DNA of 64,000 nucleotides. Origin: Candidatus Woesearchaeota archaeon. Its GTDB lineage: Archaea; Nanobdellota; Nanobdellia; Woesearchaeales; GW2011-AR9. The notes below the pieces were generated by a model that saw only the letters and a program-made list of their open reading frames with translations, did no database searches and was not told where the DNA came from. Position numbers and translations under genes: made by a program. Location: the NCBI GenBank assembly GCA_018303445.1, contig JAGVYE010000003.1, positions 2,366-66,365 of the forward strand. Reading direction: 5' to 3'. This document shows, one piece after another, positions 3,722 to 20,009 of this stretch; position 1 is the stretch's first letter, and each line of letters begins with the position of its first letter.

Positions 3722-3789
3722 CTTGTCAGCTTTATTTCATACTTCAAGTGGTCTCCGCAAGTGGTGCTCCAAACACTTTTCAATAACGC
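3722..3789 (+). repeat. 68-bp conserved intergenic element, copy A. 64/68 identical to copy B at 55765..55832. Ends 50 nt upstream of a + strand start codon
   Basis: cttgtcagctttatttcatacttcaagtggtctccgcaagtggtgctccaaacacttttcaataacgc. Contains a TTTATTT TATA-like box. A partial inverted partner lies at 3630-3667. Confidence 0.6.
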
Positions 3790-3838
3790 CCTAAATTTAG
3801 GAAAAATATATAAAGATTATTTTCTTGCTATCGTAGTG

Positions 3839-6724
3839 ATGTTTAAAAAAAGAGCGTGGATCATGGCGATTGTTTTAATTTTATTAAATTCAACTTTCTT
3901 GCTGGCTGATCATCAGTTAACAATTGGCTCTGTCGGCTGTCCAATTGGCGCTTCCAATCATTGCGTGGAAAATGCTTATTGTCCTTCTTCCGATTTTTAT
4001 GATGGCACAACTCGAATTGCCAGGCAAACGGTATGCACCGAAAAATTGATTAATTACCGACGTTGTAATGCAGATGAGCCTGCTGATCGGAGAGATCAAC
4101 AGTGCTTAGGAATTCTTAGAAATCCTAATCTTCCATTCTCAGCAACAACCAATCCTGTTGATCTGCAAAGCAGATGCCTGCCGGCGGAAACTGATCAGCG
4201 AGGAAATAACCCTCAATTAATTGCAGGACAATATTATTGCCTTCCTATCTATCGCGGACCTACACTTTTTCCTAGTTATGATGGCCAGCAGTGTTACAAC
4301 CAAGAACAATGTTCTAATGGCATTTGCGATCGCAAGGCTGATTTTGAAGATAAAAAAATTTGCCAGCGGGCCTTGATTTCGTCAGCCAACCATTTGGGAG
4401 GGGTCGCTCCTGACGTAACCATTCGCGGCGCCTGTTTTTTTGACCGCCAATGTTTTGGCTACGATCCTCAGAGTAATGCTGATGCCTGCGCTGGAGAAGA
4501 TCGCGCTGTCGTGCCTTACAGTCCGGGAGTTTGCCGTTTGCGGCAAGGACAACCCCAAATCGGGTTTACCATTCGTTCTGACCTTTGGGGAAATATTGAC
4601 GGGACGCCAGCAGCAGCTGATGCTACTAGAATTAGTGTTTATCGGGGAGAAACAATTGAATTAAACTGGAATGTTATGGCGGATACCGTCAACAGCGGTC
4701 CAGTTTCCTGCACGGGAATTAGCAATCCTCCAGGCCTCTGGACGTATTCTCTGCAAAACTGGGAGGACCGTTCCTTTGCGCCCTATCCTTTGCTATGGAG
4801 ACCAGAAACTCCTATTTCTCAGAGAATAGGGCCAATTACTCAGGATACGTCGTTTACCTTTTCTTGCACTAATAGGGAAAGTAGCACTCCCATTTCCAAG
4901 ACCGTACAGGTTACTTTGCGTCCAGTTTCTCCTCCCGCTTGCTCTGGGAATGAAAATAACTGTCTTTTAGCTCATTTGGATTTTGAACGGCCAGAAATAA
5001 ATGGTGAATCAGCTGGGAGACAAATATTTCCCGGCGGTCCTGAAAGCTCTTGCCGTTTTCCTCAAGTTTGCACGAGAAACAGGCTGGGAGAATATTTGCC
5101 CGGCAGATTGCAAGGAAATCCAACTCTAATACCTTCAATAGATTCAAACCAACCTGGACCTAGATTCTACCAATTGGATGGTGTTGATGATGTTGTTTCT
5201 CTTCCTTTAGATATCCGCGACCCGGTTTTTTCTAATGGAGTTACCGTTTCATTTTGGGTTAAGCCGGGAAGTAATAGAAATGAGGACTTATTGGTTTGGG
5301 CTGATTCTGTAGGCGGAAGAATTTTGAATATCCTTTTAAATCCTTCTTCAGGTGGCCAAATTATGACTGTGAGTGCAGGCGGTTTAGGCGGTATAATATT
5401 ATCCCCGTTTTATGGTTCACGATGGAATCAGGTTGTTTTCTCCATCCAGCCGCAGTCAAATCAGCAAACTCTAACTTATCGTGTTTATATCAATGGTCAT
5501 TTAAAGTTTGAAGGGACCCAATCAAATATTCTTTTTCAAACCGGAAAAATGCTTTTGTTTGGTGGGGTTCGTGATTTTTTAAATATCCCACCTTTCACTG
5601 GCAGCATAGATGAAATAAAAATATTTCGTGAAGCGCTGCCAATGAGGCAAATAGCTAATTTATATCGTACAGATGCACTTCAAAATCATAATTACTGGAG
5701 AGGATGTTTGGGAAAAGTGCCAAGTTCCCAGCTTTGTACTATCGAAGTTAATGGTGCAAACTTAGATGATCGTATTGTTACCAATTTGCTAGACAACCAA
5801 GGCCAGTGTCCAGCTACAGTTGGAAGTCGTAATCTTTGCCATGCTTACTGCCTGCCAGGTTATGTCGTCCAGCCAGGCAATAGTATCGGAGAATCCCGCT
5901 GTGTTCCGGAAGGGCAGCAGGATTTGGCTCCTCCAACAATTACCAGTCAACAAGCAACGGATATAACCTCTACTTCTGCTACCTTGCGAGTAATTACCAA
6001 TGAACCAGCAACTTGCAGATATGATCGTATTGATGGCGGTTCTTATAATTCGCTGATCAATCCATTTGCCACGACAGGAGGCACGAGCCATTCTTCTGTT
6101 ATTAACGGTTTAGAACCGCAGGGATACATTTATTTTTTTAATTGCCGGGATAATTTTGGCAATGTGCGCGCCCAAAATTATCAAATCTCATTTGTAATCC
6201 CAGTTGAAACCACTCCGATGCTCTATTATTGTTCCAGCGACCGTAATGAGCCTAATCAGGCCAACAATCCTCCTGCCGGAGGCGTAGGTTTGAGATATTC
6301 GGGATATAATACTCAAATTAGGGGCACTTCGAACATGGTTGATGGTATCTCCCAAACAGACGTTTGCGAATCAGCAACAGCCTTGCGTGAATTTTATTGC
6401 TGGTCAGCGAATGGACGATATATTAACCCAGATAGCGCCGCTGCTGGTTTATTACGATCGGAAGTAGTTAACTGCAATTGTCTTGAGGGCGCCTGCGTCA
6501 GCGCTCCGCCTCCAGCCGCGGCTTGCGGCGATATTGACGCCAATGGCATAATAAATATTGCTGATATTAACCGCCTGATTGCTCATGTAGTGAATCGACA
6601 ACCGCTTACTGCCGATGAACGGCTTAGGGCTAATGTTGACGGGGCTGGAGAGATTACTTTTGGAGATATTTTCCGGTTAATTGATAAGGTGATTAATCCA
6701 TTAACATCTTTGGTCTGCTCATAA
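3839..6724 (+). CDS. Large secreted protein: N-terminal signal/TM, Cys-rich region, LamG/ConA-like lectin domain, C-terminal dockerin (two Ca-binding repeats)
   Basis: Start set at MFKKRAWIMAIVLILL (the ORF-track start at 3761 lies inside the conserved 68-bp element). LamG-like stretch: VTVSFWVKPGS...WNQVVFS...YINGHL...GSIDEIKIF. Dockerin: GDIDANGIINIADINRLIAHV + ANVDGAGEITFGDIFRLIDKV. Confidence 0.75.
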   Translation: MFKKRAWIMAIVLILLNSTFLLADHQLTIGSVGCPIGASNHCVENAYCPSSDFYDGTTRIARQTVCTEKLINYRRCNADEPADRRDQQCLGILRNPNLPFSATTNPVDLQSRCLPAETDQRGNNPQLIAGQYYCLPIYRGPTLFPSYDGQQCYNQEQCSNGICDRKADFEDKKICQRALISSANHLGGVAPDVTIRGACFFDRQCFGYDPQSNADACAGEDRAVVPYSPGVCRLRQGQPQIGFTIRSDLWGNIDGTPAAADATRISVYRGETIELNWNVMADTVNSGPVSCTGISNPPGLWTYSLQNWEDRSFAPYPLLWRPETPISQRIGPITQDTSFTFSCTNRESSTPISKTVQVTLRPVSPPACSGNENNCLLAHLDFERPEINGESAGRQIFPGGPESSCRFPQVCTRNRLGEYLPGRLQGNPTLIPSIDSNQPGPRFYQLDGVDDVVSLPLDIRDPVFSNGVTVSFWVKPGSNRNEDLLVWADSVGGRILNILLNPSSGGQIMTVSAGGLGGIILSPFYGSRWNQVVFSIQPQSNQQTLTYRVYINGHLKFEGTQSNILFQTGKMLLFGGVRDFLNIPPFTGSIDEIKIFREALPMRQIANLYRTDALQNHNYWRGCLGKVPSSQLCTIEVNGANLDDRIVTNLLDNQGQCPATVGSRNLCHAYCLPGYVVQPGNSIGESRCVPEGQQDLAPPTITSQQATDITSTSATLRVITNEPATCRYDRIDGGSYNSLINPFATTGGTSHSSVINGLEPQGYIYFFNCRDNFGNVRAQNYQISFVIPVETTPMLYYCSSDRNEPNQANNPPAGGVGLRYSGYNTQIRGTSNMVDGISQTDVCESATALREFYCWSANGRYINPDSAAAGLLRSEVVNCNCLEGACVSAPPPAAACGDIDANGIINIADINRLIAHVVNRQPLTADERLRANVDGAGEITFGDIFRLIDKVINPLTSLVCS

Positions 6725-7132
6725 AAAGGTATGTATTAAGTCTGGGGCTTTAACATCAACCCGTGGGCCTTCTCGCCAATTAAGATCCAGCAAAAAGGGA
6801 ATTCATGAAATGTGAAAAATATCACATTTCAGTACTGAAAATAAATCTCTGTTTATTTTCATGTTCCAAAAGGAATTTTTGCCTTTGAGTTGCAACATCG
6901 CGTTCTCTAGGTTCGTGAAAATTGCTAAAATATCAAAAATCACTCAGAAAGTGAAATGTGCCCACATAGTTTACGACAAAAATAAATTATAAAGCAAGGT
7001 TATAAACTCTCGTTAAGGATTAATTCAGTTTCAACCAATAATCCATAGCTTATTTATGTCGCCAATTAACAAAAGAAAAAGTATATAAATGGCAAGATTT
7101 TCTCTTAAAGTTGAAAAAAAAGGATGAATTAG

Positions 7133-8572
7133 ATGAAGTTAAATGAGGTTAGTGCAAGTAAGAGTAAACTATCTCGCTCTGTTATTTCTGGCTCTCAGAT
7201 TTCTTCTTTCAAGAAAACAGGGCTGATAGTAATGATAGCAGTTGTGATTTTAGCCATAGGGTTCTCGTTTCTGTTTCCAGCTTCTAAGAAGGGACTGGCA
7301 GGGCGGGCATTCGGGGAAACTGTTGGTGGACCATCAATACCACTCACAAGTTGTGGTCTAATCACTGCGCCAGGAGTCTATACTCTTAACACTGTTCTTT
7401 CTGTCGCTGATTCCGCGTTATCAAATAATGCCTGCGTGACAATTACAGTTGATAACGTCGGCATTCGCTGCACTGCTGGAGGAGGATTTACGTTCACAGG
7501 AAGCAATCCGCTAGCAAAAGGAGTGCGTATCATGAATGTGAATGGTGTGGAAGGTGTTAAGGTGACAGGATGTCAGTTTCTTAGTTTTCCACAGCGCAGC
7601 ATAGAAGTTGAAGGCAGCAGCGGCATTGTTCTTAATGATAATGTCATTATACAATCGGGAAGTATGGGGCAGGGTATTTCTCTTTCAGCTTCACAACGTT
7701 TGTTAGTTGATAAAAATAAAATTTCTGCTCCTATAGGTCTGGCGATGGATAGTACCACGGAAAGTGTTGTCAGCAGGAACATTATTCGCGCGGCACAGAC
7801 AGGAATCTCCGTTGGGCAAGGAAGCAGCATGAATTCTTTTTTTGAGAACACTGTTTCTGGCAGGCAAGCAGGAATAACCGTTGCGGCAACGGATAAAAAT
7901 GATTTTTATCTTAATGTTATCTCCGGAAGCCCGGTAGGGATATCTTTTAGCGGCTCGACAAATACTGGTTTCGGCCAGAATACTTTATGCGGGAATTTTC
8001 AAAATGGGGTGGCCTGCACAAGTACTCCTCCAACTACCTTTAGCGGCGGCAGTGGTAATTTTCTGACGGGAAATAGTTGTTCTAGTTTAGTAGGGGCTTC
8101 TTTTAGTGATTGTCCCAATCCTGCGGTTACTCTTTGCGGCAATAGTTGGGTTGATAATGGCGAACAATGTGATGATGGAAATACTGTCGGAAATGACGGC
8201 TGTTCAAGCACGTGTCAGAATGAACAACCTTCCTTCTCTTGCGCCACTCCTGCCCCAAATAATTCTGATCCTTGCGCTAATCGCGCTAATCCAACTACTG
8301 CCAACACTCCCAATGTTCTGTTTGCTACTTGCCCAACAACTAATGTTCCTGCTTGCAGTTATAGTTGCCGAAGTAATTTTCGATTAAATGCAGGAGTGTG
8401 TGAAGCTGTTCCCGCAGGTTTACCGGCTTGCCATGTACTTAAACAGAGGTGTGATACAAATGAAAAAATTATTATTGATGTTGGCATTATTGCTCCTTCC
8501 TTTTGCTTTAGCAGATATTTCCATAACTTGTTCTCCATCCTCAGTTCAACCAGGCGAAGCTGTGAATTGTAA
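7133..8572 (+). CDS. Membrane-anchored surface protein with a right-handed parallel beta-helix (PbH1-type repeats) and one Myxococcus-type Cys-rich repeat
   Basis: N-terminal TM (LIVMIAVVILAIGFSFLF). Repeating G-x-x-V/I-x-x-N-x-I/V units (NVIIQSG.., NIIRAAQTGISV.., NVISGSPVGISF..). CDDGNTVGNDGCSSTCQ motif. The 3' end overlaps the next gene by ~110 nt in another frame. Confidence 0.65.
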   Translation: MKLNEVSASKSKLSRSVISGSQISSFKKTGLIVMIAVVILAIGFSFLFPASKKGLAGRAFGETVGGPSIPLTSCGLITAPGVYTLNTVLSVADSALSNNACVTITVDNVGIRCTAGGGFTFTGSNPLAKGVRIMNVNGVEGVKVTGCQFLSFPQRSIEVEGSSGIVLNDNVIIQSGSMGQGISLSASQRLLVDKNKISAPIGLAMDSTTESVVSRNIIRAAQTGISVGQGSSMNSFFENTVSGRQAGITVAATDKNDFYLNVISGSPVGISFSGSTNTGFGQNTLCGNFQNGVACTSTPPTTFSGGSGNFLTGNSCSSLVGASFSDCPNPAVTLCGNSWVDNGEQCDDGNTVGNDGCSSTCQNEQPSFSCATPAPNNSDPCANRANPTTANTPNVLFATCPTTNVPACSYSCRSNFRLNAGVCEAVPAGLPACHVLKQRCDTNEKIIIDVGIIAPSFCFSRYFHNLFSILSSTRRSCEL

Positions 8573-9947
8573 CGCAGCTACTACGACTACGTTAAATAAT
8601 GTTGGCAGGTTAAGCTTTACAGTTAATCCCGGAACCTTATTTGAGATTACTAGCACATCTGGCCTTGCAGGAGTGACTTTTAATCCCGCTAATGGCATTG
8701 GAACCTATACCAATGCTCAAGGCATTAATTTTAATGCTAATGCGGTATTATTTACAATTAATTTACGCGCTAAAACTGGAGTTCAAGGCAGCGAATCGAT
8801 TTCATTTAGCCGATTTATCGTAAGAGATCTTACTCCCGCAGATATTAACTTTGGCACTGTAAGAAATTCGAATATGATCACTGTTGGTTCTGCTGACCGT
8901 GCTTGTTCAGAAGCAGATTGGTGTGGTCCATGGGGCACTTGTCCTGCTGGAACTCAAACTAGAACTTGTAACACGCCTGCAGGTGCAGCTTGTACTAGCG
9001 GTGTGACTGCTGAACCAGCAGAAACGCAATCTTGCACTCCAAGTTGCGCTGGAGTTGCGGATGGCGCAGCTTGTACTTTAAGCGGCGCTGCCGGCACTTG
9101 TCAAAGTGGTGGTTGTCAGACAGTACCTGGAACTTGTACTGCTCGCGCCACAACTTGTAATGTAGCTGGTGTTGATTGTCCTAATGGTCCAACTGGAACT
9201 CCTGTTCGTGTTAACCGAATAATTTGCCCTAGCGAAACTCCTTGTAATCCGACAACTGGATTATGTCAAGCAGTTGCATGTACTGCTCGCGCCACAACTT
9301 GTATTCAGGCAGGTGTTAGTTGCCCCTCTGGTTCATCTGGTGCTGCTGTTACAGTAGCTCAAGTAGTTTGCAGTGATGCAACTCCTGTTTGTAATACTAT
9401 AACTGGTTTATGTGAAGCCGCTCCTGCCTGTATTGACGCAGATAATGATAGGTATTACCCTGGAGAGTTTAGTACTCAATGCTTTATAACTGGCCAACCT
9501 TTGGGTTTTGGAGATTGCAATGATAATAATCCTCTCATTCATCCTAGCGATAATGAATTGATTTGTAATGATGGATTAGATAATGATTGCAATGGTTTCA
9601 CTGATTGCGCAGATGTCTTGGCTTGCGTTCGTTTAGCTTGTGTAACCGGCGGAGTTGCCGGAACTTGCCAAAATAATGGTATTTGTCAACCGCCTGCTGG
9701 TCGTGGAGCAACAAGTTGCACTGAAGGTCAATCCATAACTGGAACACCGTCTTGTAATTGTGATGCAAAAGTTATTTCCGGAGCAACTTATCAGCGTCAT
9801 GAAATTGGCGGACAATGCACCCTTCTGCTGGGCAAAATTAAAGCCGAATTTGAATCATCGCGTAATGCTTTGCAAAAAATGGTGAATATGGCGCGGTTGC
9901 TGCGTTGTTACATTTCCAGTACCAGAGCAACTTGCATGGAACAATAA
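8460..9947 (+). CDS. Secreted Cys-rich protein: signal peptide, N-terminal Ig-like (possibly cohesin-like) domain, W-C-W module, 2x A-T-C-x-x-A-G-V-x-C-P...V-C-S..T-P-x-C-N-x-x-T-G-L-C-E repeats, conserved GQCTLLL..IK C-terminus
   Basis: Start moved to MKKLLLMLALLLLPFALA (signal peptide). Paralogous in its N- and C-terminal segments to 12269..13822. Confidence 0.65.
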   Translation: MKKLLLMLALLLLPFALADISITCSPSSVQPGEAVNCNAATTTTLNNVGRLSFTVNPGTLFEITSTSGLAGVTFNPANGIGTYTNAQGINFNANAVLFTINLRAKTGVQGSESISFSRFIVRDLTPADINFGTVRNSNMITVGSADRACSEADWCGPWGTCPAGTQTRTCNTPAGAACTSGVTAEPAETQSCTPSCAGVADGAACTLSGAAGTCQSGGCQTVPGTCTARATTCNVAGVDCPNGPTGTPVRVNRIICPSETPCNPTTGLCQAVACTARATTCIQAGVSCPSGSSGAAVTVAQVVCSDATPVCNTITGLCEAAPACIDADNDRYYPGEFSTQCFITGQPLGFGDCNDNNPLIHPSDNELICNDGLDNDCNGFTDCADVLACVRLACVTGGVAGTCQNNGICQPPAGRGATSCTEGQSITGTPSCNCDAKVISGATYQRHEIGGQCTLLLGKIKAEFESSRNALQKMVNMARLLRCYISSTRATCMEQ

Positions 9948-9951
9948 GATC

Positions 9952-12240
9952 ATGAAAACTACTGCTGAAGATAATCTGGACCATTCTAAAATAAAGAATG
10001 AAAAGAAAGGGCAGGCAAATCAGAAATTAGTAGTAATCAGTATCTTTGCAGTAGTATTATTAGGAGCGCTGATAGTGTTATATTTCTTTACGGACACTTT
10101 TGTGGGAAGAGCGTTTCAAACTGGAATTAGGAATTCTGCCGGATTGGATTTCAGCGGCGGAATAGAAAATCTGCCTTTAAATGACGAGGGAACTTATCCT
10201 CTTAAAGCTAATGTTGATCAAGCCGTGAGAATCAATGCGATTAATTTTGTGATGAAGTATGATTCTGCCAAGTTATCAGTTAATAATTGCCAGCAGCGAG
10301 TTCAGCAAACTTTAGATAGTTATTTTAATTATAATCTCATTAATGATTTATCCTTAATACGAGAAGTTTCCTGTGATCCAGCAGGAAAAATAACGGTTAA
10401 TTATGTTTTTGCCTGTGATCCAACCAACAATTGCAATAATTTACCGGCTCCTGCTGCCTCCGGAGATATTTTCTTGGCAATATTTCTTTTTACTGGCATT
10501 GCGGCAGGAACTGCGGACGTTTATTTTGAATCATTAGACATTTATGATGTTAATTCACTGCCTGGAACTACGGCAGTTTCATTAAATTCTCCGACGAGAA
10601 CTAGCCCGGATAGAATTACTGTACGTCAGACTACGGAAACTGTTGATCAATCACTAGCTTGCACTAGTTCTAATGACTGTTCGACAGGACAAACATGCAG
10701 CGGCGGTATTTGTATTTCACCCCGTTGCGGCAATGGCGTACTTGAAGTAATAGAACAGTGCGATGATGGAAATACTGCTGGAGATGACGGCTGTTCTTCA
10801 ACCTGTCAAATTTATGAAGCAGGATGGCTATGTAATACACCCGGTCAGCTCTGCCAAAAATTATGCGGCAATGGGGTTGTTGAAGTTGCAGCTAGTGAAT
10901 GGTGTGATGATGGAAATAATGCCAATGGCGATGGCTGCACTCGTACTTGTCAAATGGAGAACGGATATGTTTGTCCAAGAAGAGGCGGAGTATGTATTTT
11001 AAGTACACAGGCTTGCGGCGACGGAGTAGTGCAAGTTGGTGAATATTGCGATGATGGAAATGCCGCTTCAAGTGATGGCTGCGCAGCTTGTCAAATTGAA
11101 AATGGATATACTTGCAGTGGCAGCCCTTCTGCTTGTGTTCGTATGGGGGAGACCACTTATATAAATTTTTGTGGCGATGGAATAATCCAAGACAATGGCG
11201 GGAATGGAATTGCCGGAGATATCGATGATGAACAATGTGATGACGGCAATCGAAATGATAATGATGCTTGCACTAATATTTGCCGCACTGCCTTTTGCGG
11301 TGATGGAGTTGTCAGAGCTGGAACAGAACAATGCGATGACGGCAATCGAAATGATAATGACGCTTGCACTAATATTTGCCGCACTGCCTTTTGCGGCGAT
11401 GGAGTTGTCAGAGCTGGAACAGAACAATGTGATGACGGCAATATGGTAAATACTGATGGCTGCACCACTCAATGTCGTACAAATGTTTGCGGTGATGGAA
11501 TTGTTTGGATAAGAACAGAATATTGCGATGATGGCAATCTAGTGAATGACGATGGTTGTTCAAGTACCTGTCAAATTGAGTTAATAGGCCGCTGCGGTGA
11601 TGGAACAGTTAACCCTAATGAACAATGTGACGATGGGAATCAAAATGATAATGACGCTTGCACTAATATTTGTCGCACTGCCTTTTGCGGCGATGGAGTT
11701 GTCAGAGCTGGAACAGAACAATGTGATGACAGCAATCCTGCAAATTATGATGATTGTACCAATGAATGTCGTATTGCCGTTTGCGGTGATGGAATTACCA
11801 GAGCTGGAACAGAACAATGTGATGATAGGAATACTATTACTGAAATATGTGCTTATGGTCAACGATCGTGTACTGTCTGTAATAATCAATGTCAATCTGT
11901 TGCTGGCGCAGCGACGTATTGTGGTGACGGAATTATACAAACGGGTGAACAGTGCGATGATGGAAATGCAGTTCTTGGTGATGGATGTTCAGCAACGTGC
12001 AGCGTAGAATCTAGTGGTGCTGGGTTATTGGGCGATGTAAATGGCGATGAGGTTGTAGATTTAGCTGATGCTATTGATGTTGCCAGATTTGATTTAGGTA
12101 TTTCGACTAGTCTAACATTCAATGCAGCGCGGGGAGATGTGACCTGTAATAATGGAGCAGTAGACATTGCTGATGCTATACTTATTGCCAGGGTTGATTT
12201 AGGAATTCCTGGATTTAATATCCCTAATTCCTGTTCATGA
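9952..12240 (+). CDS. Scaffoldin-like surface protein: N-terminal TM anchor, Ig/cohesin-like domain, ~14 Myxococcus-type Cys-rich repeats (C-x-DGN-x6-C-x3-C), C-terminal dockerin
   Basis: TM: VVISIFAVVLLGALIVLYFF. Repeats: CDDGNxxxxDxC(T/S)xxC..CGDG. C-terminal dockerin: GDVNGDEVVDLADAIDVARFDLG + GDVTCNNGAVDIADAILIARVDLG. Confidence 0.75.
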   Translation: MKTTAEDNLDHSKIKNEKKGQANQKLVVISIFAVVLLGALIVLYFFTDTFVGRAFQTGIRNSAGLDFSGGIENLPLNDEGTYPLKANVDQAVRINAINFVMKYDSAKLSVNNCQQRVQQTLDSYFNYNLINDLSLIREVSCDPAGKITVNYVFACDPTNNCNNLPAPAASGDIFLAIFLFTGIAAGTADVYFESLDIYDVNSLPGTTAVSLNSPTRTSPDRITVRQTTETVDQSLACTSSNDCSTGQTCSGGICISPRCGNGVLEVIEQCDDGNTAGDDGCSSTCQIYEAGWLCNTPGQLCQKLCGNGVVEVAASEWCDDGNNANGDGCTRTCQMENGYVCPRRGGVCILSTQACGDGVVQVGEYCDDGNAASSDGCAACQIENGYTCSGSPSACVRMGETTYINFCGDGIIQDNGGNGIAGDIDDEQCDDGNRNDNDACTNICRTAFCGDGVVRAGTEQCDDGNRNDNDACTNICRTAFCGDGVVRAGTEQCDDGNMVNTDGCTTQCRTNVCGDGIVWIRTEYCDDGNLVNDDGCSSTCQIELIGRCGDGTVNPNEQCDDGNQNDNDACTNICRTAFCGDGVVRAGTEQCDDSNPANYDDCTNECRIAVCGDGITRAGTEQCDDRNTITEICAYGQRSCTVCNNQCQSVAGAATYCGDGIIQTGEQCDDGNAVLGDGCSATCSVESSGAGLLGDVNGDEVVDLADAIDVARFDLGISTSLTFNAARGDVTCNNGAVDIADAILIARVDLGIPGFNIPNSCS
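11233..11814 (+). repeat. Tandem 96-bp (32-codon) repeats inside 9952..12240. Three copies are almost identical at DNA level (11233-11328, 11329-11424, 11623-11718) and others are diverged
   Basis: Repeat unit caatgtgatgacggcaatcgaaatgataatga(t/c)gcttgcactaatatttgccgcactgccttttgcgg(t/c)gatggagttgtcagagctggaacagaa. Confidence 0.85.
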
Positions 12241-12268
12241 AAAGGTGTTCATGAAAAGGTGAAATAAA

Positions 12269-13822
12269 ATGGTGCAAAGAAAATTTAAATCTTGGATGAT
12301 CATTGGTTTATTCATTTTAATGCTTCCCATAGCGGCCGCGGTTAATTTTAATGTAAATTGTCCTGCTTCATCTCTTTCTGGTCAAAGTTTTACCTGTCAA
12401 GTAAATATGCCGACGCCTCTGGCATCAGGTCTTTCATCATTGAGTTTTACTGCTAATGCTGGCGGAGCAACTATTGCCGTAACTTTTCCCCAAGGCACCA
12501 CGGTCAGCAGTGGCGGCACGTATGGTTTTTTTACTCCTACGCCAGTAACTAATTCTAATCCTTTAGCCTCCGTGCAAATAACTCCTATTACTGGCCAAAC
12601 CTCTGTAACATTACAATTGACTGGTGTGCGAGGACGATTGGGAGATAATACTTTACTTCTTCCTGCAAATCCAGCGCCAAATAATATTGCATTTAATAGT
12701 CCAACAGTAACTATTGGCTCTACTTGTACGTCAACAGGAAATGCAGAAACTAGTTGTAATGGAATAGATGATGATTGTGATGGCAGTGTTGATGAAAATT
12801 TCGTTGGAACGTCTACCACTTGCGGAGTAGGAGTCTGCGTTGCAACTGGATTGACAACCTGTCCGAGAGCTTCAGGTCAAACAACTGTAGGCAATAGCTG
12901 TACTCCTAGAACTCCAATAGCTGAAGTTTGCACTGACAGTTTAGATAATGATTGCGATGGAACGGTTAATGAGGGTTGTACTGTTTGTGTTCCTCGTGAT
13001 CCCACTGCCTGCACAACTGGTGTTGAATGTCCAAGCGGGAATAGTCTTCCAGCTTTAGGCTGTTCTAATGGTCAAAGTTGTCAGGGAAGTCCGGCTAGTT
13101 GTCAACCAACAGCAGCAGGAAATAATCTGCCGGTAGCAGAAGATGATACTTTTACCGTTGTTTTAGGAGCTGGTGCTGGCAGTCTAGAAACTACTTTTAA
13201 TGTTTTAACTAATGATCGAGATCCAGATAATGATGCTTTACGTATTACCAGCACCACTCAACCGGCTAATGGTTTAGTTTCTTTGCCATCAAACCGAAGA
13301 ATTTCTTATCGCAGCAACGCTGGATTTACAGGGACAGATTCATTTACTTACACTATCAGCGATGGCCGCGGCGGAACAGCTACGGCTACGGTAACGGTGA
13401 CAGTGAGTTCTTCTTTAACTTGCACTTTTCGCGCCGCAACTTGCAGTCAAGCAGGTGTTAATTGTCCTGATGGCTCTGGCGGCGAACCTGTTAGTATTGA
13501 CCGGGTAGTTTGCAGCGGTGTAACTCCTTTTTGTAATACTAAAACTGGCTTATGTGAAACTGGCTGTGCGGAAGGAACCTTGTTAGCAGATCCACCTGTG
13601 TGTACTTGTGTTGCTCCTTTGCAGAATGTTGATGGTGTTTGTAAATGTCCTCCTTCAGCAGGAAGGGCTCAGCATCTGGTGAGAGGGCAATGCACACTTT
13701 TACTTACAGAAATTAAAGATTCTTTAGAAAACGATCAGCAATATAGCGGAATAATGCAGAAAGTTTCCCGTATCGCTGAAGCGTTGAAGAATTTCCTGAG
13801 GGCAGTTCATTTAATTAATTAA
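12269..13822 (+). CDS. Secreted Cys-rich protein, paralog of 8460..9947: signal peptide, Ig/cohesin-like N-domain, Cys-rich region, C-terminal conserved GQCTLLLTEIK helix
   Basis: Signal: WMIIGLFILMLPIAAA. N-terminus NVNCPASSLSGQSFTCQVN parallels SITCSPSSVQPGEAVNC in the paralog. Shares the CTFRAATCSQAGVNCPDG...VVCSGVTPFCNTKTGLCE module. Confidence 0.65.
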   Translation: MVQRKFKSWMIIGLFILMLPIAAAVNFNVNCPASSLSGQSFTCQVNMPTPLASGLSSLSFTANAGGATIAVTFPQGTTVSSGGTYGFFTPTPVTNSNPLASVQITPITGQTSVTLQLTGVRGRLGDNTLLLPANPAPNNIAFNSPTVTIGSTCTSTGNAETSCNGIDDDCDGSVDENFVGTSTTCGVGVCVATGLTTCPRASGQTTVGNSCTPRTPIAEVCTDSLDNDCDGTVNEGCTVCVPRDPTACTTGVECPSGNSLPALGCSNGQSCQGSPASCQPTAAGNNLPVAEDDTFTVVLGAGAGSLETTFNVLTNDRDPDNDALRITSTTQPANGLVSLPSNRRISYRSNAGFTGTDSFTYTISDGRGGTATATVTVTVSSSLTCTFRAATCSQAGVNCPDGSGGEPVSIDRVVCSGVTPFCNTKTGLCETGCAEGTLLADPPVCTCVAPLQNVDGVCKCPPSAGRAQHLVRGQCTLLLTEIKDSLENDQQYSGIMQKVSRIAEALKNFLRAVHLIN

Positions 13823-13859
13823 TGGGGTTAGTTTATGAGGGTGAAGATGAGGTTAGTTT

Positions 13860-16331
13860 ATGAAAGTGAAGAGAATAAAAAAAGGCAAGCATAGTGTTTT
13901 ACGGTACAAGTCATTGCCTCCTCACACCAATGAAGCAGTTCCTGTTACACATCTGGGAGAAGTAAGCAAACCTTTTATTATTGTTGCCATTACTATTGCT
14001 GCTATTGTTTTGTTAGCGGTATTCTTAATGTTTAAAGATCAGATTGTTGGAAAAGCGTTTTTTGTGGCTGGTGTAGTAGATACAGCAGGCATCGCAAATC
14101 CTGGTTCAGTTTTGGAGAATACGCCTTTTTCTTTGCTGGTTAGAGCTAACATTGGAACGAAAGAAACAACAGGCATAGAATTTGAATTTCCTTTGCCTAC
14201 AGGATTACGTTGCCGAGTGGCAAATCCAATTGAGAATTTGTTGGGATGGAATGCCCAAAATGGGGCGCTGCTAGAGGAAGCAACGTGCGTGAATAACGTG
14301 GTGCATTTCCGTTATCTTACCGTGAATGGGCAAGAAGCGAAGAGAGGAGAGTTTGATATTGCACGAATTCATGTTGAAGGCGCAGCGGCAGGAACATACA
14401 CTTCAACTTTCCGTCTTTTTAATATTATTAATCTTGCTACTCCTCAAGGCGATATCATTAGCAATGGGTTGGTTGATCCTCTCGTTGTACGACAAGTGGG
14501 ATTCTGTCAGGATAATAGCCAATGCCAGCAAGGAGTATGTAATACGCAAACGAATCGATGTGCGCAATGTGTTGCTGATGCGCAATGCAGTGGAACTACG
14601 CCGATTTGTAATACCCAAACTAACCTGTGTGAAGCTCGTGCGCCTGCCTGTGGCAATCAGCAAATTGATGTAACAGAACAATGCGATGATGGTAATACTG
14701 CAAATGGAGATGGTTGTTCAAGCACTTGTCAAAGAGAAGCACCTCCAGAAATAACTTATCGCGTCAATTGTCCTCAAGATAATATTTCTATAGGTCAAAC
14801 AACAACGTGTGAAATTATTTTAAATCAGGCCGTAACGGAAACATACGGAGAACAATTTACGATTTCCGCTCCTGGATTTACGGCAGCAACTCCATTTATT
14901 GAAGGTGTTACAGGTATTACTGCATCTTCGGCAGGAATTGGAGGAACAACCCTTCTCGTTGAAAGTGATCACTTAACGAGCCGAGGTCAAGCGGCAGGTG
15001 TCGTGGCTCGGTTTACACTTCGCGCGGGAAATGCGGGAGGAATATACACAGTCTCTTTGAGCAACTTAGTCTTGGGAAGTTCTGCTACTTCTGATATGAT
15101 AACAATTTTAGCAGCGGAAAGAGAATGCAGCGCAACTAATAAAGCAGCATGCCAAGATCGAACATCATGCGAAGCTACACTTGTCGGCGGATATTGGTAT
15201 AATAATCAATGCAATACCCAACCGGAATGCCGCGTCAATAATTTAGCTGGCTGTCGAACACAAGCACAGTGTGAAGCGACAGCTATTGGCGGCCGATGGA
15301 ATGCGGCAACAAGCACCTGCAGTGCAGCGCCAACATGCAGCCCAACTAATCTGGCTGTGTGCACACAAACAAACTGTGTTACTGTTGGTCAAGGAGTTTG
15401 GAATACAACGGCAAGCAGCTGTGATACAGCAGTTGAAATTTGTAATGATGGACAAGATAATGATCAAGATACTCAAGTAGATTGCGTCGATACGGAATGC
15501 AGAGGAAGAGCCGGTGCCAATGGCGCTCTCTGTTGCCAAGCAGTAGCTGATTGTCGAGAAGGACAAGAGTGTCAAGCAAATCAGTGTAGAACGGTAACAA
15601 TCCAAACAACAACAACTTCTTCGTCTGGCGGAGGCGGTGGCGGAGGAGGCGGAGGCGGTGGTTGCGTTTCCAATTGGCAATGTGATCTTTGGAGTTACTG
15701 TAACTCTACTTTGCAGAAATCGCGAACTTGCATAGATTTGCGAAAATGTATCCAAAAGCCAAAATTAGAAGTTCAATCCTGTCCTGCTTGTGAAGAATCA
15801 TGGTTGTGTACGTCGTGGAGTCAATGTTTTGGCAGTACAAAAACGAGAACGTGTACTGATGAGCATAAATGTGGAACGTTGCGGCTAAAACCATCAGAGC
15901 AGCAGCAATGCACACTTCCAAGTTCGCAATTGCCTGTGCAACAGGTACAGCAGCCTCAACAGTTTTATGTGCCTCCCCCTTCAGTTCCATATCAAGCTCC
16001 ACAAGTACAAAAGCCAAGCGTCTTTAGGCAATATCAAACGTGGTTTATCAGTGGGGCTTCTCTCTTACTTTTAGTTATAATCTTAGGCCTGGTCTGGCGT
16101 TTAACTCATCGTCCTCAGCAACTGGGTTATAATATCGGTGAATTGAAAGAATGGATTAAACAAGAACAAGCAATGGGAACTTCAAACGAAGACATTAAAG
16201 AAATCCTCTCTGATAAAACGGGATGGACAAAAGAAGAAATTGAAAAGGCCTTTGAAAGTTTAGGAAGCGCGCTCACAGAAGAACAACTTCAATCTTCAGA
16301 AGAACAAATCATGGAAATAGGGGGGAAATAA
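13860..16331 (+). CDS. Giant membrane-anchored surface protein: N-terminal signal anchor, Ig-like domain, Myxococcus-type Cys-rich repeats, poly-Gly linker, 2x W-C-W 6-Cys module, Gln/Pro-rich stalk, C-terminal TM and conserved cytoplasmic tail
   Basis: TM1: FIIVAITIAAIVLLAVFLMF. Motif CDDGNTANGDGCSSTCQ. Linker SSSGGGGGGGGGGGG. Modules CVSNWQCDLWSYC.. and CEESWLCTSWSQC... TM2: ISGASLLLLVIILGLVW. Tail: NEDIKEILSDKTGWTKEEIEKAFESLG. Confidence 0.75.
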   Translation: MKVKRIKKGKHSVLRYKSLPPHTNEAVPVTHLGEVSKPFIIVAITIAAIVLLAVFLMFKDQIVGKAFFVAGVVDTAGIANPGSVLENTPFSLLVRANIGTKETTGIEFEFPLPTGLRCRVANPIENLLGWNAQNGALLEEATCVNNVVHFRYLTVNGQEAKRGEFDIARIHVEGAAAGTYTSTFRLFNIINLATPQGDIISNGLVDPLVVRQVGFCQDNSQCQQGVCNTQTNRCAQCVADAQCSGTTPICNTQTNLCEARAPACGNQQIDVTEQCDDGNTANGDGCSSTCQREAPPEITYRVNCPQDNISIGQTTTCEIILNQAVTETYGEQFTISAPGFTAATPFIEGVTGITASSAGIGGTTLLVESDHLTSRGQAAGVVARFTLRAGNAGGIYTVSLSNLVLGSSATSDMITILAAERECSATNKAACQDRTSCEATLVGGYWYNNQCNTQPECRVNNLAGCRTQAQCEATAIGGRWNAATSTCSAAPTCSPTNLAVCTQTNCVTVGQGVWNTTASSCDTAVEICNDGQDNDQDTQVDCVDTECRGRAGANGALCCQAVADCREGQECQANQCRTVTIQTTTTSSSGGGGGGGGGGGGCVSNWQCDLWSYCNSTLQKSRTCIDLRKCIQKPKLEVQSCPACEESWLCTSWSQCFGSTKTRTCTDEHKCGTLRLKPSEQQQCTLPSSQLPVQQVQQPQQFYVPPPSVPYQAPQVQKPSVFRQYQTWFISGASLLLLVIILGLVWRLTHRPQQLGYNIGELKEWIKQEQAMGTSNEDIKEILSDKTGWTKEEIEKAFESLGSALTEEQLQSSEEQIMEIGGK

Positions 16332-18431: not shown

Positions 18432-20009
18432 ATGAGAAATGTCAATAAAGAAAAAGTATTGGTAGCTCTAGCTATTATTATTCTTATCGCAGCTTTTCTA
18501 CTAACTTACATCCCTAAAGGGCCGTTGTTTGGCAAGGCCGTAAGTACAGGAATGACGCATGCCATCTCCATCCAAAATTTTGCTTTCTCACAACTGGAAG
18601 TTACTATTAATGTTGGGGACACAGTCACGTGGACAAATAATGACCAAGCTACACATATGGTAGTTTCGAGAGGAAGCGGACCTTTAGATTCTGGTACGAT
18701 GGTAAACGGGCAAAGTTATAGTTATACTTTTGTTGCTTCTGGCACCTATGAATTCTTTTGTTCCCTTCATCCATTTATTATGATCCCTGGAAGGGTTATA
18801 GTTATTAATGCCACCCCTGCCATTCCGCCGACTCCGCCTTCGCCTCCGCTAGACTCGCTGCCTCCCCAACCTTCGCCACCCCCTCCTCCGCCAGCGGCAA
18901 CGCCGCCTGTGATAGAGATGCCTTCATTAAACATAACTCTTGTCACTCCTTCTCACTCAGGTGCAGTTCAGAATGGAACAGTGAATTTCACGTACCTTTT
19001 TCAGGGAATAACTCCCAGCCAATGTATGTTATATGGAAATTTTAGCGGCACGTGGCAGCCAGGTCTTGCTCAAACAGTAGCTGTTAATGGGAGTTATACA
19101 TTTACTTCTAATCTTTTGAATGGAAGTTACCTTTGGAATGTTCTCTGCAGCAGCAGTTCAACGCAAGGGCTGGTAAGTAAATGGGGAAGCAGGAATTACA
19201 CTTTAACTGTGGCTGTACCAGCAAGTTCTCTTTCCGTCCCTAATATTTCTCAACAAAATCAAATCATGGTTGCTCTTCTTACTCCTGCTGATCGTGCCGC
19301 GTTGCAAAATGAAAGCGTTTCTTTCTCTTTTTCTTTTACAGGACCAACTCAAGGAAGTTGTCAGCTTTATGGCGATTTTAATGGCAGTTGGAGTATGAAT
19401 ACCAGCCTGGCTTCTCTTAATAATGGAACCTCTCGTCTCACTTTTAATGTTGGTAATGGACGTTATCTCTGGAACGTACATTGTGTTGATAGTGCTAATC
19501 TTTCTAATGAAGATTGGAGTGATTATAACTGGAGTGTTAGTGTTTCCCAATTGTCTGTGAATGTCTCGAGTCAAACAAATGCCACAAATATAACTTCTTG
19601 TTTAGAAGCCTGGAGTTGTACAGGGTGGTCTTTATGTGAATTTGGCAGGCAAACACGAATATGCACTGACCAAAATAATTGTGGAACCTTTTTACAAAGA
19701 CCGCCTCAGACCCAAGTTTGTGTTCAGCAGCAGGCAGCAGCAACAACAACTTCTCCAGCAAGTGGAAGTAATTTTCCTTCTACGAACACTGCAGCACAAC
19801 CAACACGGGCTCCTCCTTCCTTTCCTGCTCCTTCTCTTTCAGATACTGAAAAGAAACCTTTGGTGCAGCAGCCAAAAGAAACAACACAGAAAAAAAGTAC
19901 TCTTCTCTTCCTTATCCTTGGCACAACTGTTGCTTTGGTGGGTTTCATCCTCTACCGTAGGCACGTTGAAGTCATATGTGGCAAAAGACAGGATGAGAGG
20001 AGTCAATGA
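18432..20009 (+). CDS. Membrane-anchored surface protein with N-terminal type-1 copper cupredoxin domain, Pro-rich linker, 2x Ig-like N-glycosylated repeats, W-C-W module, C-terminal TM. Apparent +1 frameshift before the conserved cytoplasmic tail, which continues in frame +1 to 20082
   Basis: Cupredoxin ligands: H in ATHMVV, then C..H..M in FFCSLHPFIM. PPTPPSPPLDSLPPQPSPPPPPP linker. Repeated NGSYLWNVLC / NGRYLWNVHC. CLEAWSCTGWSLC module. TM LLFLILGTTVALVGFILY. Tail homolog (VNDTAIRQNLAQAGWNKNDIDEAMKK) is encoded in the other frame (ORF 19636..20082). Confidence 0.7.
   Translation: MRNVNKEKVLVALAIIILIAAFLLTYIPKGPLFGKAVSTGMTHAISIQNFAFSQLEVTINVGDTVTWTNNDQATHMVVSRGSGPLDSGTMVNGQSYSYTFVASGTYEFFCSLHPFIMIPGRVIVINATPAIPPTPPSPPLDSLPPQPSPPPPPPAATPPVIEMPSLNITLVTPSHSGAVQNGTVNFTYLFQGITPSQCMLYGNFSGTWQPGLAQTVAVNGSYTFTSNLLNGSYLWNVLCSSSSTQGLVSKWGSRNYTLTVAVPASSLSVPNISQQNQIMVALLTPADRAALQNESVSFSFSFTGPTQGSCQLYGDFNGSWSMNTSLASLNNGTSRLTFNVGNGRYLWNVHCVDSANLSNEDWSDYNWSVSVSQLSVNVSSQTNATNITSCLEAWSCTGWSLCEFGRQTRICTDQNNCGTFLQRPPQTQVCVQQQAAATTTSPASGSNFPSTNTAAQPTRAPPSFPAPSLSDTEKKPLVQQPKETTQKKSTLLFLILGTTVALVGFILYRRHVEVICGKRQDERSQ

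What the first reader, a model, noticed from the sequence alone, without database searches (positions are those of the whole stretch)
8460..14400. N-terminal Ig-like domains of 8460, 12269 and 13860 products as candidate cohesin partners
Three further locus proteins begin (after the signal) with ~130-aa beta-rich domains of similar pattern (…SFTVNPGTLFEI…ISFSRFIVRDL…; …SFTANAGGATIAVTFPQ…LQLTGVRG…; …FSLLVRANIGTKETTGIEFEFPLP…FDIARIHVEGAAAG…). These domains in 8460..9947, 12269..13822 and 13860..16331 are the most plausible receptors for the two dockerins.
Basis: inference. Interest (0 to 1): 0.55.

Follow-up and report, generated by a model that had tools for sequence, protein, structure and literature searches.

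The report
Hidden cohesin modules in Woesearchaeal locus
Surface proteins of a tiny symbiotic-type archaeon (Woesearchaeota) start with sequence-divergent versions of the cohesin "socket" that bacteria use to plug dockerin-tagged proteins into cell-surface complexes. They sit beside two dockerin-tagged proteins, so this is probably a non-cellulolytic surface assembly kit.

Summary
The quoted motifs and the ~130-aa beta-rich domains are real, but they belong to two families, not one.

**Type A.**
- It is a genuine family: 51 hits among 1.84 billion representatives, about 28 of them spanning the whole domain.
- The AlphaFold2 model is confident (pLDDT 92.6).
- All 50 best PDB fold matches are cohesins (best 5n5p, TM 0.77; includes archaeal 2xdh).
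- Pfam does not detect it.

**Type B.** This covers the p13860 N-terminus (aa 66-215) and the p9952 N-terminus. It is a separate family and probably also cohesin-like, on weaker evidence:
- The model is poor (pLDDT 55), though its fold hits are still mostly cohesins.
- One relative scores 23.1 bits against Pfam Cohesin, just under the 24.1-bit cut-off.

**Dockerins and context.** The two dockerins (p3761, p9952) are real. Type A, type B and dockerin genes cluster together in the two related metagenomic loci that have enough context. FtsZ places the organism in Ca. Woesearchaeota (DPANN).

**Verdict.** Binding to the dockerins is inferred only: both structure-prediction jobs went on the two folds, so no co-folding was run.

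**Extra lead.** An unannotated C-terminal helical module (CTH) on p8460 and p12269 is repeatedly encoded immediately upstream of a type B gene.

The parts
8460..8513 (+). Sec-type signal peptide of p8460 (MKKLLLMLALLLLPFALA). The 8460 start is preferred over the longer ORF starting at 8388.
   Evidence: Translation. Homologues P0004 and P0006 start with the same kind of leader directly before the domain.
8514..8897 (+). Type A cohesin module of p8460 (aa 19-146), with Cys24 and Cys37 invariant across the family
   Evidence: AF2 pLDDT 92.6. Foldseek top 50 are all cohesins, best 5n5p_A at E = 1.3e-6 and TMq 0.77. Family alignment A3.
9807..9914 (+). C-terminal helix-loop-helix module (CTH) of p8460: GGQCTLLLGKIKAEFESSRNALQKMVNMARLLRCY
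   Evidence: Local HMM gives E = 1.7e-17, though this sequence was in the HMM seed. Alignment A7. No match in Pfam, NCBIfam or PDB.
12341..12727 (+). Type A cohesin module of p12269 (aa 25-153)
   Evidence: A3 HMM E = 1.4e-29, as an alignment member. BLASTP to the other two type A copies.
13682..13801 (+). CTH module of p12269: RGQCTLLLTEIKDSLENDQQYSGIMQKVSRIAEALKNFL
   Evidence: Local HMM gives E = 1.3e-18, though this sequence was in the HMM seed.
14055..14504 (+). Type B cohesin-like module of p13860 (aa 66-215), directly after the N-terminal hydrophobic helix and a VGKAF motif
   Evidence: 27% identity to p9952-N. AF2 pLDDT only 55.5. Foldseek: 40 of the top 50 hits are cohesins. Family member L034 hits Pfam Cohesin at E = 9.2e-5.
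14745..15125 (+). Third type A cohesin module, internal to p13860 (aa 296-422).
   Evidence: A3 HMM E = 6.3e-37. BLASTP E = 3e-8 to p12269-N and 9e-6 to p8460-N.
10117..10629 (+). Type B cohesin-like module of p9952 (aa 56-226)
   Evidence: Pfam Cohesin E = 0.045. Alignments A2 and A6.
12025..12237 (+). Dockerin of p9952 (aa 692-762). Two Ca-loop repeats: DVNGDEVVDLAD and DVTCNNGAVDIAD.
   Evidence: Pfam Dockerin_1 E = 0.0083. Leave-out dockerin HMM E = 1.2e-3.
6524..6721 (+). Dockerin of p3761 (aa 922-987). Ca loops: DIDANGIINIAD and NVDGAGEITFGD.
   Evidence: Pfam Dockerin_1 E = 5.7e-4. PDB dockerins 2ccl_B and 1ohz_B at E = 1.5e-4 to 3e-4. Leave-out HMM E = 6e-12.
16038..16100 (+). C-terminal transmembrane helix of p13860 (about aa 727-747), followed by a conserved cytoplasmic tail. 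This makes p13860 the likely cell-anchored scaffold.
   Evidence: Translation. The tail is conserved in L007 and L028 by tblastx and is visible in L001, L020, L022, L028 and L038 ORFs.

Best explanation
The locus 3761-16331 of this Ca. Woesearchaeota genome encodes a non-cellulosomal cohesin-dockerin surface assembly.

**Cohesin modules.** p8460, p12269 and p13860 each carry a divergent cohesin module (type A) that Pfam does not detect. It has a nine-stranded cohesin jelly-roll fold and a family-invariant cysteine pair. p13860 and p9952 additionally start with a second, more weakly supported cohesin-like module (type B).

**Scaffold.** p13860 ends in a transmembrane helix and a cytoplasmic tail. 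It is the likely cell-anchored scaffoldin, displaying one type B and one type A module.

**Adaptors.** p8460 and p12269 are secreted proteins with a type A module at the mature N-terminus.

**Payloads.** The Ca-loop dockerins at the C-termini of p3761 (LamG lectin-like payload) and p9952 (ten Cys-rich DUF4215 repeats) plug into these cohesins. This would build an adhesion-type complex on the cell surface.

**Shown:** the fold of type A, the reality of both families, the dockerins, and the clustering in relatives.

**Inferred:** the cohesin nature of type B, all binding, and which cohesin takes which dockerin.
For: **Type A family and fold**
- The type A trio are paralogues within a family found in 1.84 billion representatives (51 hits; alignment A3).
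- AF2 on A3 gives pLDDT 92.6 and pTM 0.83.
- Foldseek vs PDB: all top 50 hits are cohesins, including 5n5p (TMq 0.77), CaCohA2 6kgc (0.76) and the A. fulgidus cohesin 2xdh.
- Independent sequence signal: the five best PDB hits of profile A3 are cohesins at E = 0.005-0.01.

**Type B**
- Pfam Cohesin gives E = 0.045 for p9952-N.
- Pfam Cohesin gives E = 9.2e-5 (23.1 bits vs 24.1 cut-off) for the L034 member.
- 40 of the 50 best Foldseek hits of the low-confidence model are cohesins.

**Dockerins:**

**Conserved neighbourhood**
- L001 has 2 type A, 1 type B and 2 dockerins.
- L002 has 3 type A, 1 type B and 4 dockerins.
- L003 has 2 type A followed by a type B gene.
- Relatives also carry a type A module plus a dockerin in one polypeptide (P0022, P0023, P0042), and single type A or type B modules tethered by a linker and a TM helix (L002). 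These are architectures typical of adaptor and anchoring scaffoldins.

**Organism:** Woesearchaeota, by FtsZ identity up to 94% to MAGs.
Against: - No binding test of any kind was possible. No co-fold was run.
- None of the five window modules reaches the Pfam Cohesin cut-off.
- The type B model is low confidence (pLDDT 55.5).
- Profile searches of type B against PDB sequences found no cohesin.
- hhalign of type B against type A reaches only 44% probability over one strand pair.
- The window holds five cohesin-like modules but only two dockerins, so some modules must have other partners or none.
- Some related loci have type B modules with no dockerin that my HMM detects in the available flank.
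Confidence: 0.6

Rival explanations
1. Division of labour. Type A cohesins receive the dockerins. Type B modules receive a different ligand: the conserved C-terminal helix-loop-helix module (CTH) of the protein encoded just upstream. This would give a two-tier assembly: cell - type B::CTH - type A::dockerin - payload.
For: **Gene order.** A CTH-bearing gene lies immediately upstream of a type B gene in both window pairs (p8460->p9952, p12269->p13860) and in L001, L003, L028 and L034. Both sides of each pair have HMM support, but L034's CTH is weak at E = 0.005.

**Cases judged by eye**
- L007 and L022: the type B gene is HMM-detected, but the CTH is called by eye.
- L004 and L020: the CTH is HMM-detected, but the downstream TM-GKA-beta-rich gene is judged type B only by eye.

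**Independence from type A.** In L028 the CTH protein has no type A module at all, and none is seen in the partial L034 ORF. The pairing therefore does not depend on type A or on dockerins.

**CTH is unannotated.** It has no match in Pfam, NCBIfam or PDB. Like a dockerin, it is a short, C-terminal, two-helix module.
Against: - The evidence is gene order only. Adjacency could reflect co-translation, operon history or a shared export route rather than binding.
- In L002 and L037 the gene upstream of the type B gene ends in a TM anchor or a dockerin-like double repeat instead.
- CTH could equally be a sorting or anchoring signal, or an oligomerisation helix.
Confidence: 0.25
2. The modules have the cohesin fold but are not dockerin receptors. 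They act as adhesins, carbohydrate binders or structural spacers on host-contact proteins, and the dockerins bind elsewhere (or bind only type B).
For: - There are more cohesin-like modules than dockerins in the window (5 vs 2).
- Sequence divergence from characterised cohesins is extreme (14-21% identity in structural alignments).
- Neighbouring domains are adhesion-type: LamG, Big_9/cadherin-like, beta-helix.
Against: - Every locus with a type A gene and more than 5 kb of context also encodes dockerins (window, L001, L002).
- Type A modules and dockerins occur fused in the same proteins in relatives.
- From my own knowledge, not tested here: almost all characterised cohesin modules are dockerin binders.
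Confidence: 0.12
3. The domains are ordinary Ig-like, FN3 or PKD spacer domains.
For: - They are all-beta, about 130 aa, and sit in secreted repeat-rich proteins.
- One of 32 family members gives Pfam Ig_2 at E = 0.11.
Against: - For type A, none of the 50 best Foldseek hits is an Ig, FN3 or PKD domain; all are cohesins.
- The best PDB hits of the sequence profile are cohesins.
- For type B, only 10 of the 50 best fold hits are non-cohesin, and they are scattered among integrin, AgI/II and Fsx1.
Confidence: 0.03

Closest known systems
Non-cellulosomal archaeal cohesin-dockerin modules (Archaeoglobus fulgidus cohesin, PDB 2xdh; survey by Peer et al. 2009, cited in PMC10066038)
   Same: - Archaeal, with no glycoside hydrolases attached.
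- Cohesin fold: 2xdh is rank 11 for type A (TMq 0.65) and rank 31 for type B.
- Cohesin and dockerin can sit in the same polypeptide.
   Different: - The sequences here are not recognised by Pfam PF00963.
- Type A carries a family-invariant Cys pair.
- The lineage is DPANN (Woesearchaeota).
- Partner domains are Cys-rich DUF4215/MopE/TSP3-type repeats and LamG.
Ruminococcus flavefaciens ScaB cohesin 5 (type III cohesin-dockerin complex, PDB 5n5p)
   Same: Best structural match (TMq 0.77, rmsd 2.9 A over 132 columns) and second-best sequence-profile match (E = 0.0066).
   Different: Only 15% identity. It is a bacterial cellulosome scaffoldin with tandem cohesins, whereas here single modules sit at the mature N-terminus of mosaic surface proteins.
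Clostridium perfringens NagJ (GH84C) cohesin, which pairs with toxin-complex dockerins (PDB 2jh2, 2w1n, 2ozn, 2o4e)
   Same: Top sequence-profile hits (E about 0.005-0.01) and 21% identity in the structural alignment. It is also a non-cellulosomal use of the pair to assemble secreted proteins.
   Different: Bacterial and attached to glycoside hydrolases. It has no conserved disulfide.
Anchoring scaffoldins with single cohesins (C. thermocellum OlpA and OlpC; PDB 3ul4, 4dh2)
   Same: The architectural logic is the same: one cohesin held at the cell surface by an anchor. p13860 fits this, as do the L002 single-module TM proteins. Both PDB entries are among the fold hits.
   Different: The anchor here is a transmembrane helix rather than SLH repeats. 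p13860 combines two different cohesin-like types.

Membership tests
Cohesin (Pfam PF00963; cohesin jelly-roll beta-sandwich) | Nine-stranded jelly-roll beta-sandwich of about 140 aa, superposable on solved cohesins | tested here: met
   Type A (p8460-N, and by homology p12269-N and p13860 aa 296-422): AF2 pLDDT 92.6. All top 50 Foldseek PDB hits are cohesins, with TMq up to 0.77.
Cohesin (Pfam PF00963) - type B modules (p13860-N, p9952-N) | Cohesin fold | tested here: inconclusive
   AF2 with only 2 sequences gives pLDDT 55.5 and pTM 0.51. Even so, 40 of the top 50 Foldseek hits are cohesins, TMq 0.46-0.62.
Cohesin (Pfam PF00963) | Sequence match to the Pfam model at or above the gathering score (24.1 bits) | tested here: not met
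   - Type A: 1 of 32 members at E = 0.26, none in the window.
- Type B: p9952-N 14.4 bits, E = 0.045; relative L034 23.1 bits, E = 9.2e-5; p13860-N no hit.
Cohesin (Pfam PF00963) | Specific, usually Ca2+-dependent binding of a dockerin on the 8-3-6-5 sheet | not testable with these tools
No experiment.
Cohesin-dockerin system | Dockerin-bearing proteins encoded in the same genome or locus | tested here: met
   Two dockerins in the window. Type A, type B and dockerin genes are clustered in L001 and L002.
Dockerin type I (Pfam PF00404) - the proposed partners | Two tandem ~22-aa segments, each an EF-hand-like Ca2+ loop followed by a helix | tested here: met
   - Loops read directly from the sequence: DIDANGIINIAD and NVDGAGEITFGD in p3761; DVNGDEVVDLAD and DVTCNNGAVDIAD in p9952.
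- PDB dockerins 2ccl_B and 1ohz_B hit p3761 at E = 1.5e-4 to 3e-4.
- Pfam scores are below the cut-off: 20.5 and 16.7 bits vs 22.9.
Plain Ig-like / FN3 / PKD domains | Seven-strand Greek-key Ig or FN3 topology, or a Pfam match | tested here: not met
   No Ig, FN3 or PKD entry among the top 50 fold hits of type A. The only Pfam trace is Ig_2 at E = 0.11 in 1 of 32 members.

The most novel reading that the evidence does not exclude
Woesearchaeota may use a two-tier, two-code assembly system.
- Classical Ca-loop dockerins plug into type A cohesins.
- A previously undescribed ~40-aa C-terminal helix-loop-helix module (CTH, consensus G-x-C-T-x-L-L-x-x-I-K ... L-Q-K-I-s-x-I-A-x-x-L-R-x-Y-F) acts as a Ca-loop-free dockerin analogue. 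It would be received by the membrane-proximal type B cohesin-like module encoded by the next gene.

This would be a new cohesin-ligand pair and a new way for DPANN cells to build their surface.
Probability: 0.22. Interest if true: 0.72.

Novelty: new member of a known kind. Interest (0 to 1): 0.5.

Why it matters
DPANN archaea such as Woesearchaeota are thought to live attached to other cells, but the proteins that build their contact surface are almost entirely unannotated.

- **Hidden annotations.** Two Pfam-invisible domain families in these genomes appear to be cohesins, sitting next to real dockerins. That gives a concrete, testable assembly logic (who plugs into whom) for a set of large mosaic surface proteins carrying LamG, beta-helix, cadherin-like and Cys-rich repeat modules.
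- **Wider distribution.** It extends the non-cellulosomal use of cohesin-dockerin pairs to a new archaeal lineage.
- **Under-counting.** Sequence-profile surveys are likely to under-count cohesins, since none of the five window modules reaches the Pfam cut-off.
- **New parts.** It supplies orthogonal cohesin-dockerin candidates, possibly disulfide-stabilised, for protein engineering.
- **CTH lead.** The adjacency of CTH and type B genes could reveal a new interaction module.

Tried and rejected
**Searches that found little or nothing**
- Word-indexed homologue searches with type A, type B and the 32-sequence alignment returned almost nothing beyond near-identical fragments. Only the exhaustive representative search opened up the type A family.
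- The search for related loci with type B alignments found nothing in genomes or in metagenomes.
- Exact-sequence contig look-ups for p8460, P0001 and P0010 were not on record.
- Profile searches of type B against PDB sequences (2, 3, 5 and 10 sequences) never retrieved a cohesin.
- hhalign of type B against type A rose from 5% to 44% probability as sequences were added. It always covers only the strand 8/9 motif, so I do not claim that type A and type B are demonstrably homologous by sequence.
- NCBIfam has no model for either module or for CTH.
- The Peer et al. 2009 review could not be opened.
- Literature searches found no paper describing cohesin-dockerin systems in Woesearchaeota or DPANN.

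**Ideas considered and rejected**
- The three N-terminal domains are one family: rejected.
- They are plain Ig or FN3 domains: rejected.
- The locus is absent from the closest relative: only about 3 kb upstream of S6e is available in L005, so this cannot be judged.


Full report
**Context.** The window is archaeal: it carries an archaeal SSU rRNA at 61335-62902 and the start of the LSU rRNA. Its FtsZ (23050-24117) is up to 94% identical to FtsZ of MAGs labelled Candidatus Woesearchaeota or Nanoarchaeota. The source is therefore a DPANN archaeon.

The finding lies in a run of same-strand genes for secreted or membrane proteins:
- p3761: LamG plus a C-terminal dockerin.
- p7133: beta-helix.
- p8460.
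- p9952: ten DUF4215 Cys-rich repeats plus a C-terminal dockerin.
- p12269: MopE plus Big_9/cadherin-like domains.
- p13860: ends in a TM helix and a cytoplasmic tail.

**Observation.** The quoted peptides are at the stated places, and each protein does begin, after a hydrophobic leader, with a beta-rich domain of about 125-150 aa. The three domains are not one family, however.
- BLASTP links p8460-N to p12269-N (E = 5e-4).
- It links both to an internal domain of p13860, aa 296-422 (E = 9e-6 and 3e-8).
- p13860-N matches none of them (E > 1).
- p13860-N aligns end to end with the N-terminal domain of p9952 at 27% identity.

I call the first group type A and the second type B:

| Type | Protein | Residues | Window coordinates |
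|---|---|---|---|
| A | p8460 | 19-146 | 8514-8897 |
| A | p12269 | 25-153 | 12341-12727 |
| A | p13860 | 296-422 | 14745-15125 |
| B | p13860 | 66-215 | 14055-14504 |
| B | p9952 | 56-226 | 10117-10629 |

HMM scans of all window ORFs find exactly these five modules and no more.

**Type A is a real family with a cohesin fold.**
- Word-indexed searches were nearly empty.
- An exhaustive HMMER scan of 1.84 billion representatives with the trio's profile gave 51 hits at E <= 1e-3, about 28 spanning the whole domain.
- A 32-segment alignment (A3) shows two invariant cysteines (Cys6 and Cys19 of the module) and three subtypes.
- Pfam does not recognise the window copies.
- The five best PDB sequence hits of the A3 profile are all cohesins: C. 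perfringens NagJ cohesin and R. flavefaciens ScaB cohesin 5, at E = 0.005-0.01.
- AlphaFold2 on A3 gave a confident all-beta model (pLDDT 92.6, pTM 0.83).
- Foldseek against the PDB returned cohesins for every one of the 50 best hits. The best is 5n5p_A at E = 1.3e-6, TMq 0.77, rmsd 2.9 A. The list also includes the archaeal A. fulgidus cohesin 2xdh.

No Ig, FN3 or PKD structure appears among those hits.

**Type B is probably cohesin-like, with weaker evidence.**
- Only two sequences were available when the second and last structure job was run. The model is poor (pLDDT 55.5).
- Even so, 40 of its 50 best fold hits are cohesins, including type II cohesins.
- More family members were recovered later from related loci. 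They gave a 10-sequence alignment, A6.
- One member, from L034, matches Pfam Cohesin at E = 9.2e-5 (23.1 bits against a 24.1-bit cut-off).
- p9952-N matches at E = 0.045.
- Profile searches against PDB sequences found no cohesin.
- hhalign against type A reaches only 44% probability over the strand 8/9 motif.

I rate type B as cohesin-like at about 0.7.

**The dockerins are real.**
- Both C-termini carry two EF-hand-like loops followed by helices.
- p3761 matches Pfam Dockerin_1 at E = 5.7e-4 and the C. thermocellum Xyn10B dockerin structures at E = 1.5e-4 to 3e-4.
- p9952 is more divergent (Pfam E = 0.0083).
- An HMM built only from relatives' dockerins still finds both: E = 6e-12 and 1.2e-3 among 282 window ORFs.

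**Conserved neighbourhood.** Contigs carrying family members show the same kit.
- L001 (JGI 3300040952) is syntenic with the window through S6e, nitroreductase and FtsZ. It encodes:
  - a protein with a TM leader, a type A module and a dockerin;
  - a protein with TM, MopE/TSP3 and a dockerin;
  - a type A protein ending in the C-terminal helical module (CTH);
  - a type B protein.
- L002 has three type A genes, one frameshifted type B gene and four dockerins.
- L003 has a double type A protein followed by a type B gene.
- L002 also encodes single type A and single type B modules joined by a Gly/Ser linker to a TM anchor. This is the architecture of anchoring scaffoldins.

This clustering is the only evidence that cohesin-like modules and dockerins work together. 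Binding itself is inferred.

**Mechanism proposed.**
- p13860 is the cell-anchored scaffold: a type B module, a DUF4215 repeat, a type A module, a Cys-rich stalk, a TM helix and a cytoplasmic tail.
- p8460 and p12269 are secreted adaptors with a type A module at the mature N-terminus.
- The dockerins of p3761 and p9952 dock onto cohesin modules, giving a lectin- and repeat-decorated adhesion complex.
- Which cohesin takes which dockerin is unknown.

**An unexpected lead.** Most type A family proteins end in a conserved, unannotated helix-loop-helix module of about 40 aa, here called CTH. It has no match in Pfam, NCBIfam or PDB.

In the window it is at 9807-9914 (p8460) and 13682-13801 (p12269). 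A CTH-bearing gene lies immediately upstream of a type B gene in:
- both window pairs, and L001, L003, L028 and L034, with HMM support on both sides (L034's CTH only at E = 0.005);
- L007 and L022, where the type B gene is HMM-detected and the CTH is called by eye;
- L004 and L020, where the CTH is HMM-detected and the downstream gene is judged type B only by eye.

In L028 the CTH protein lacks type A altogether. This suggests that type B may receive CTH while type A receives dockerins. The argument rests on gene order only, and I give it about 0.2-0.25.

**Novelty.** Non-cellulosomal cohesin-dockerin pairs in archaea are known: PDB 2xdh, and Peer et al. 2009 as cited in PMC10066038. This is therefore a new member of a known kind.

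What is new is the lineage, the sequence divergence (invisible to Pfam), the conserved cysteine pair and the locus organisation. I found no paper describing this in Woesearchaeota or DPANN.

Noticed in passing
window 9807-9914 and 13682-13801; also L001 5013-5867, L003 118-1365, L004 48-929, L028 2867-3934 (C-terminal ends): A conserved, unannotated ~40-aa C-terminal helix-loop-helix module (CTH: GxCTxLLxxIK...LQKIsxIAxxLRxYF) ends many secreted proteins. Its gene is repeatedly followed directly by a type B gene. No match in Pfam, NCBIfam or PDB.
   Followed up: partly
window p7133 aa 55-60, p9952 aa 51-55, p13860 aa 63-67, p18432 aa 33-36; also P0022, P0023, P0042 and the L001-L037 type B proteins: An h-G-(K/R/Q)-A-(F/Y/V) motif lies immediately after the N-terminal hydrophobic helix of many locus proteins. 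Small residues at -3 and -1 suggest a signal-peptidase site, so these 'TM anchors' may be cleaved leaders with long basic n-regions.
   Followed up: no
window 16101-16331 (p13860 aa 748-823); L001 7154-8131, L020 4648-5727, L022 2984-6925, L028 5369-6361, L038 1304-2392 (C-terminal ends): A conserved cytoplasmic tail follows the C-terminal TM helix (LKEWIKQEQAMGTSxxDIKEILxxxTGWxxEEIEKAF). It is fused to the scaffold in the window and in L022, but is a separate downstream gene in other loci. It could couple the surface complex to the cytoplasm.
   Followed up: no
window 6524-6721, 12025-12237; dockerins in L001 and L002: These dockerins carry conserved cysteines: N-C-D in the second Ca loop plus a C-terminal Cys, or in p3761 a Cys just before loop 1 plus a C-terminal Cys. 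This suggests a disulfide clasp tying the dockerin's C-terminal tail to the rest of the module.
   Followed up: no
window p8460 aa 154-170, p13860 aa 606-625 and 647-666, p18432 aa 394-411; L001 7154-8131: A short thrombospondin-type-1-like Cys motif (WxCxxWxxC...TRTC) recurs in several surface proteins of the locus and in its relatives.
   Followed up: no
window 8388-8572: The p7133 ORF runs 112 nt past the likely p8460 start (8460), and its last ~40 aa look non-native. An alternative ATG at 8388 would add 24 aa to p8460, but homologues support the 8460 start. This may be a frameshift or a decayed 3' end of p7133.
   Followed up: no
L002 9931-10805: The type B gene of L002 is split over two reading frames (ORFs 9901-10266 and 10200-10802). 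This is a frameshift, a pseudogene or an assembly error.
   Followed up: no
L028 3-1355 and 1393-2898 (C-terminal ends); L037 2-1315 (C-terminal end): Other duplicated C-terminal helical modules occur next to type B genes. L028 has LLxxISQWRN...LLxxIQxWRTxEGC. L037 has a double GDxSxxxCVNSQDVAQFLAAYAKNYD repeat. These may be further dockerin-like variants.
   Followed up: no
window 18432-20009: p18432 is a cupredoxin/plastocyanin-like surface protein. It has a Pro-rich linker, N-glycosylation-sequon-rich repeats, the same WxCxxW motif and a C-terminal TM helix. It lies between S6e and nitroreductase, where relatives carry different inserts.
   Followed up: no
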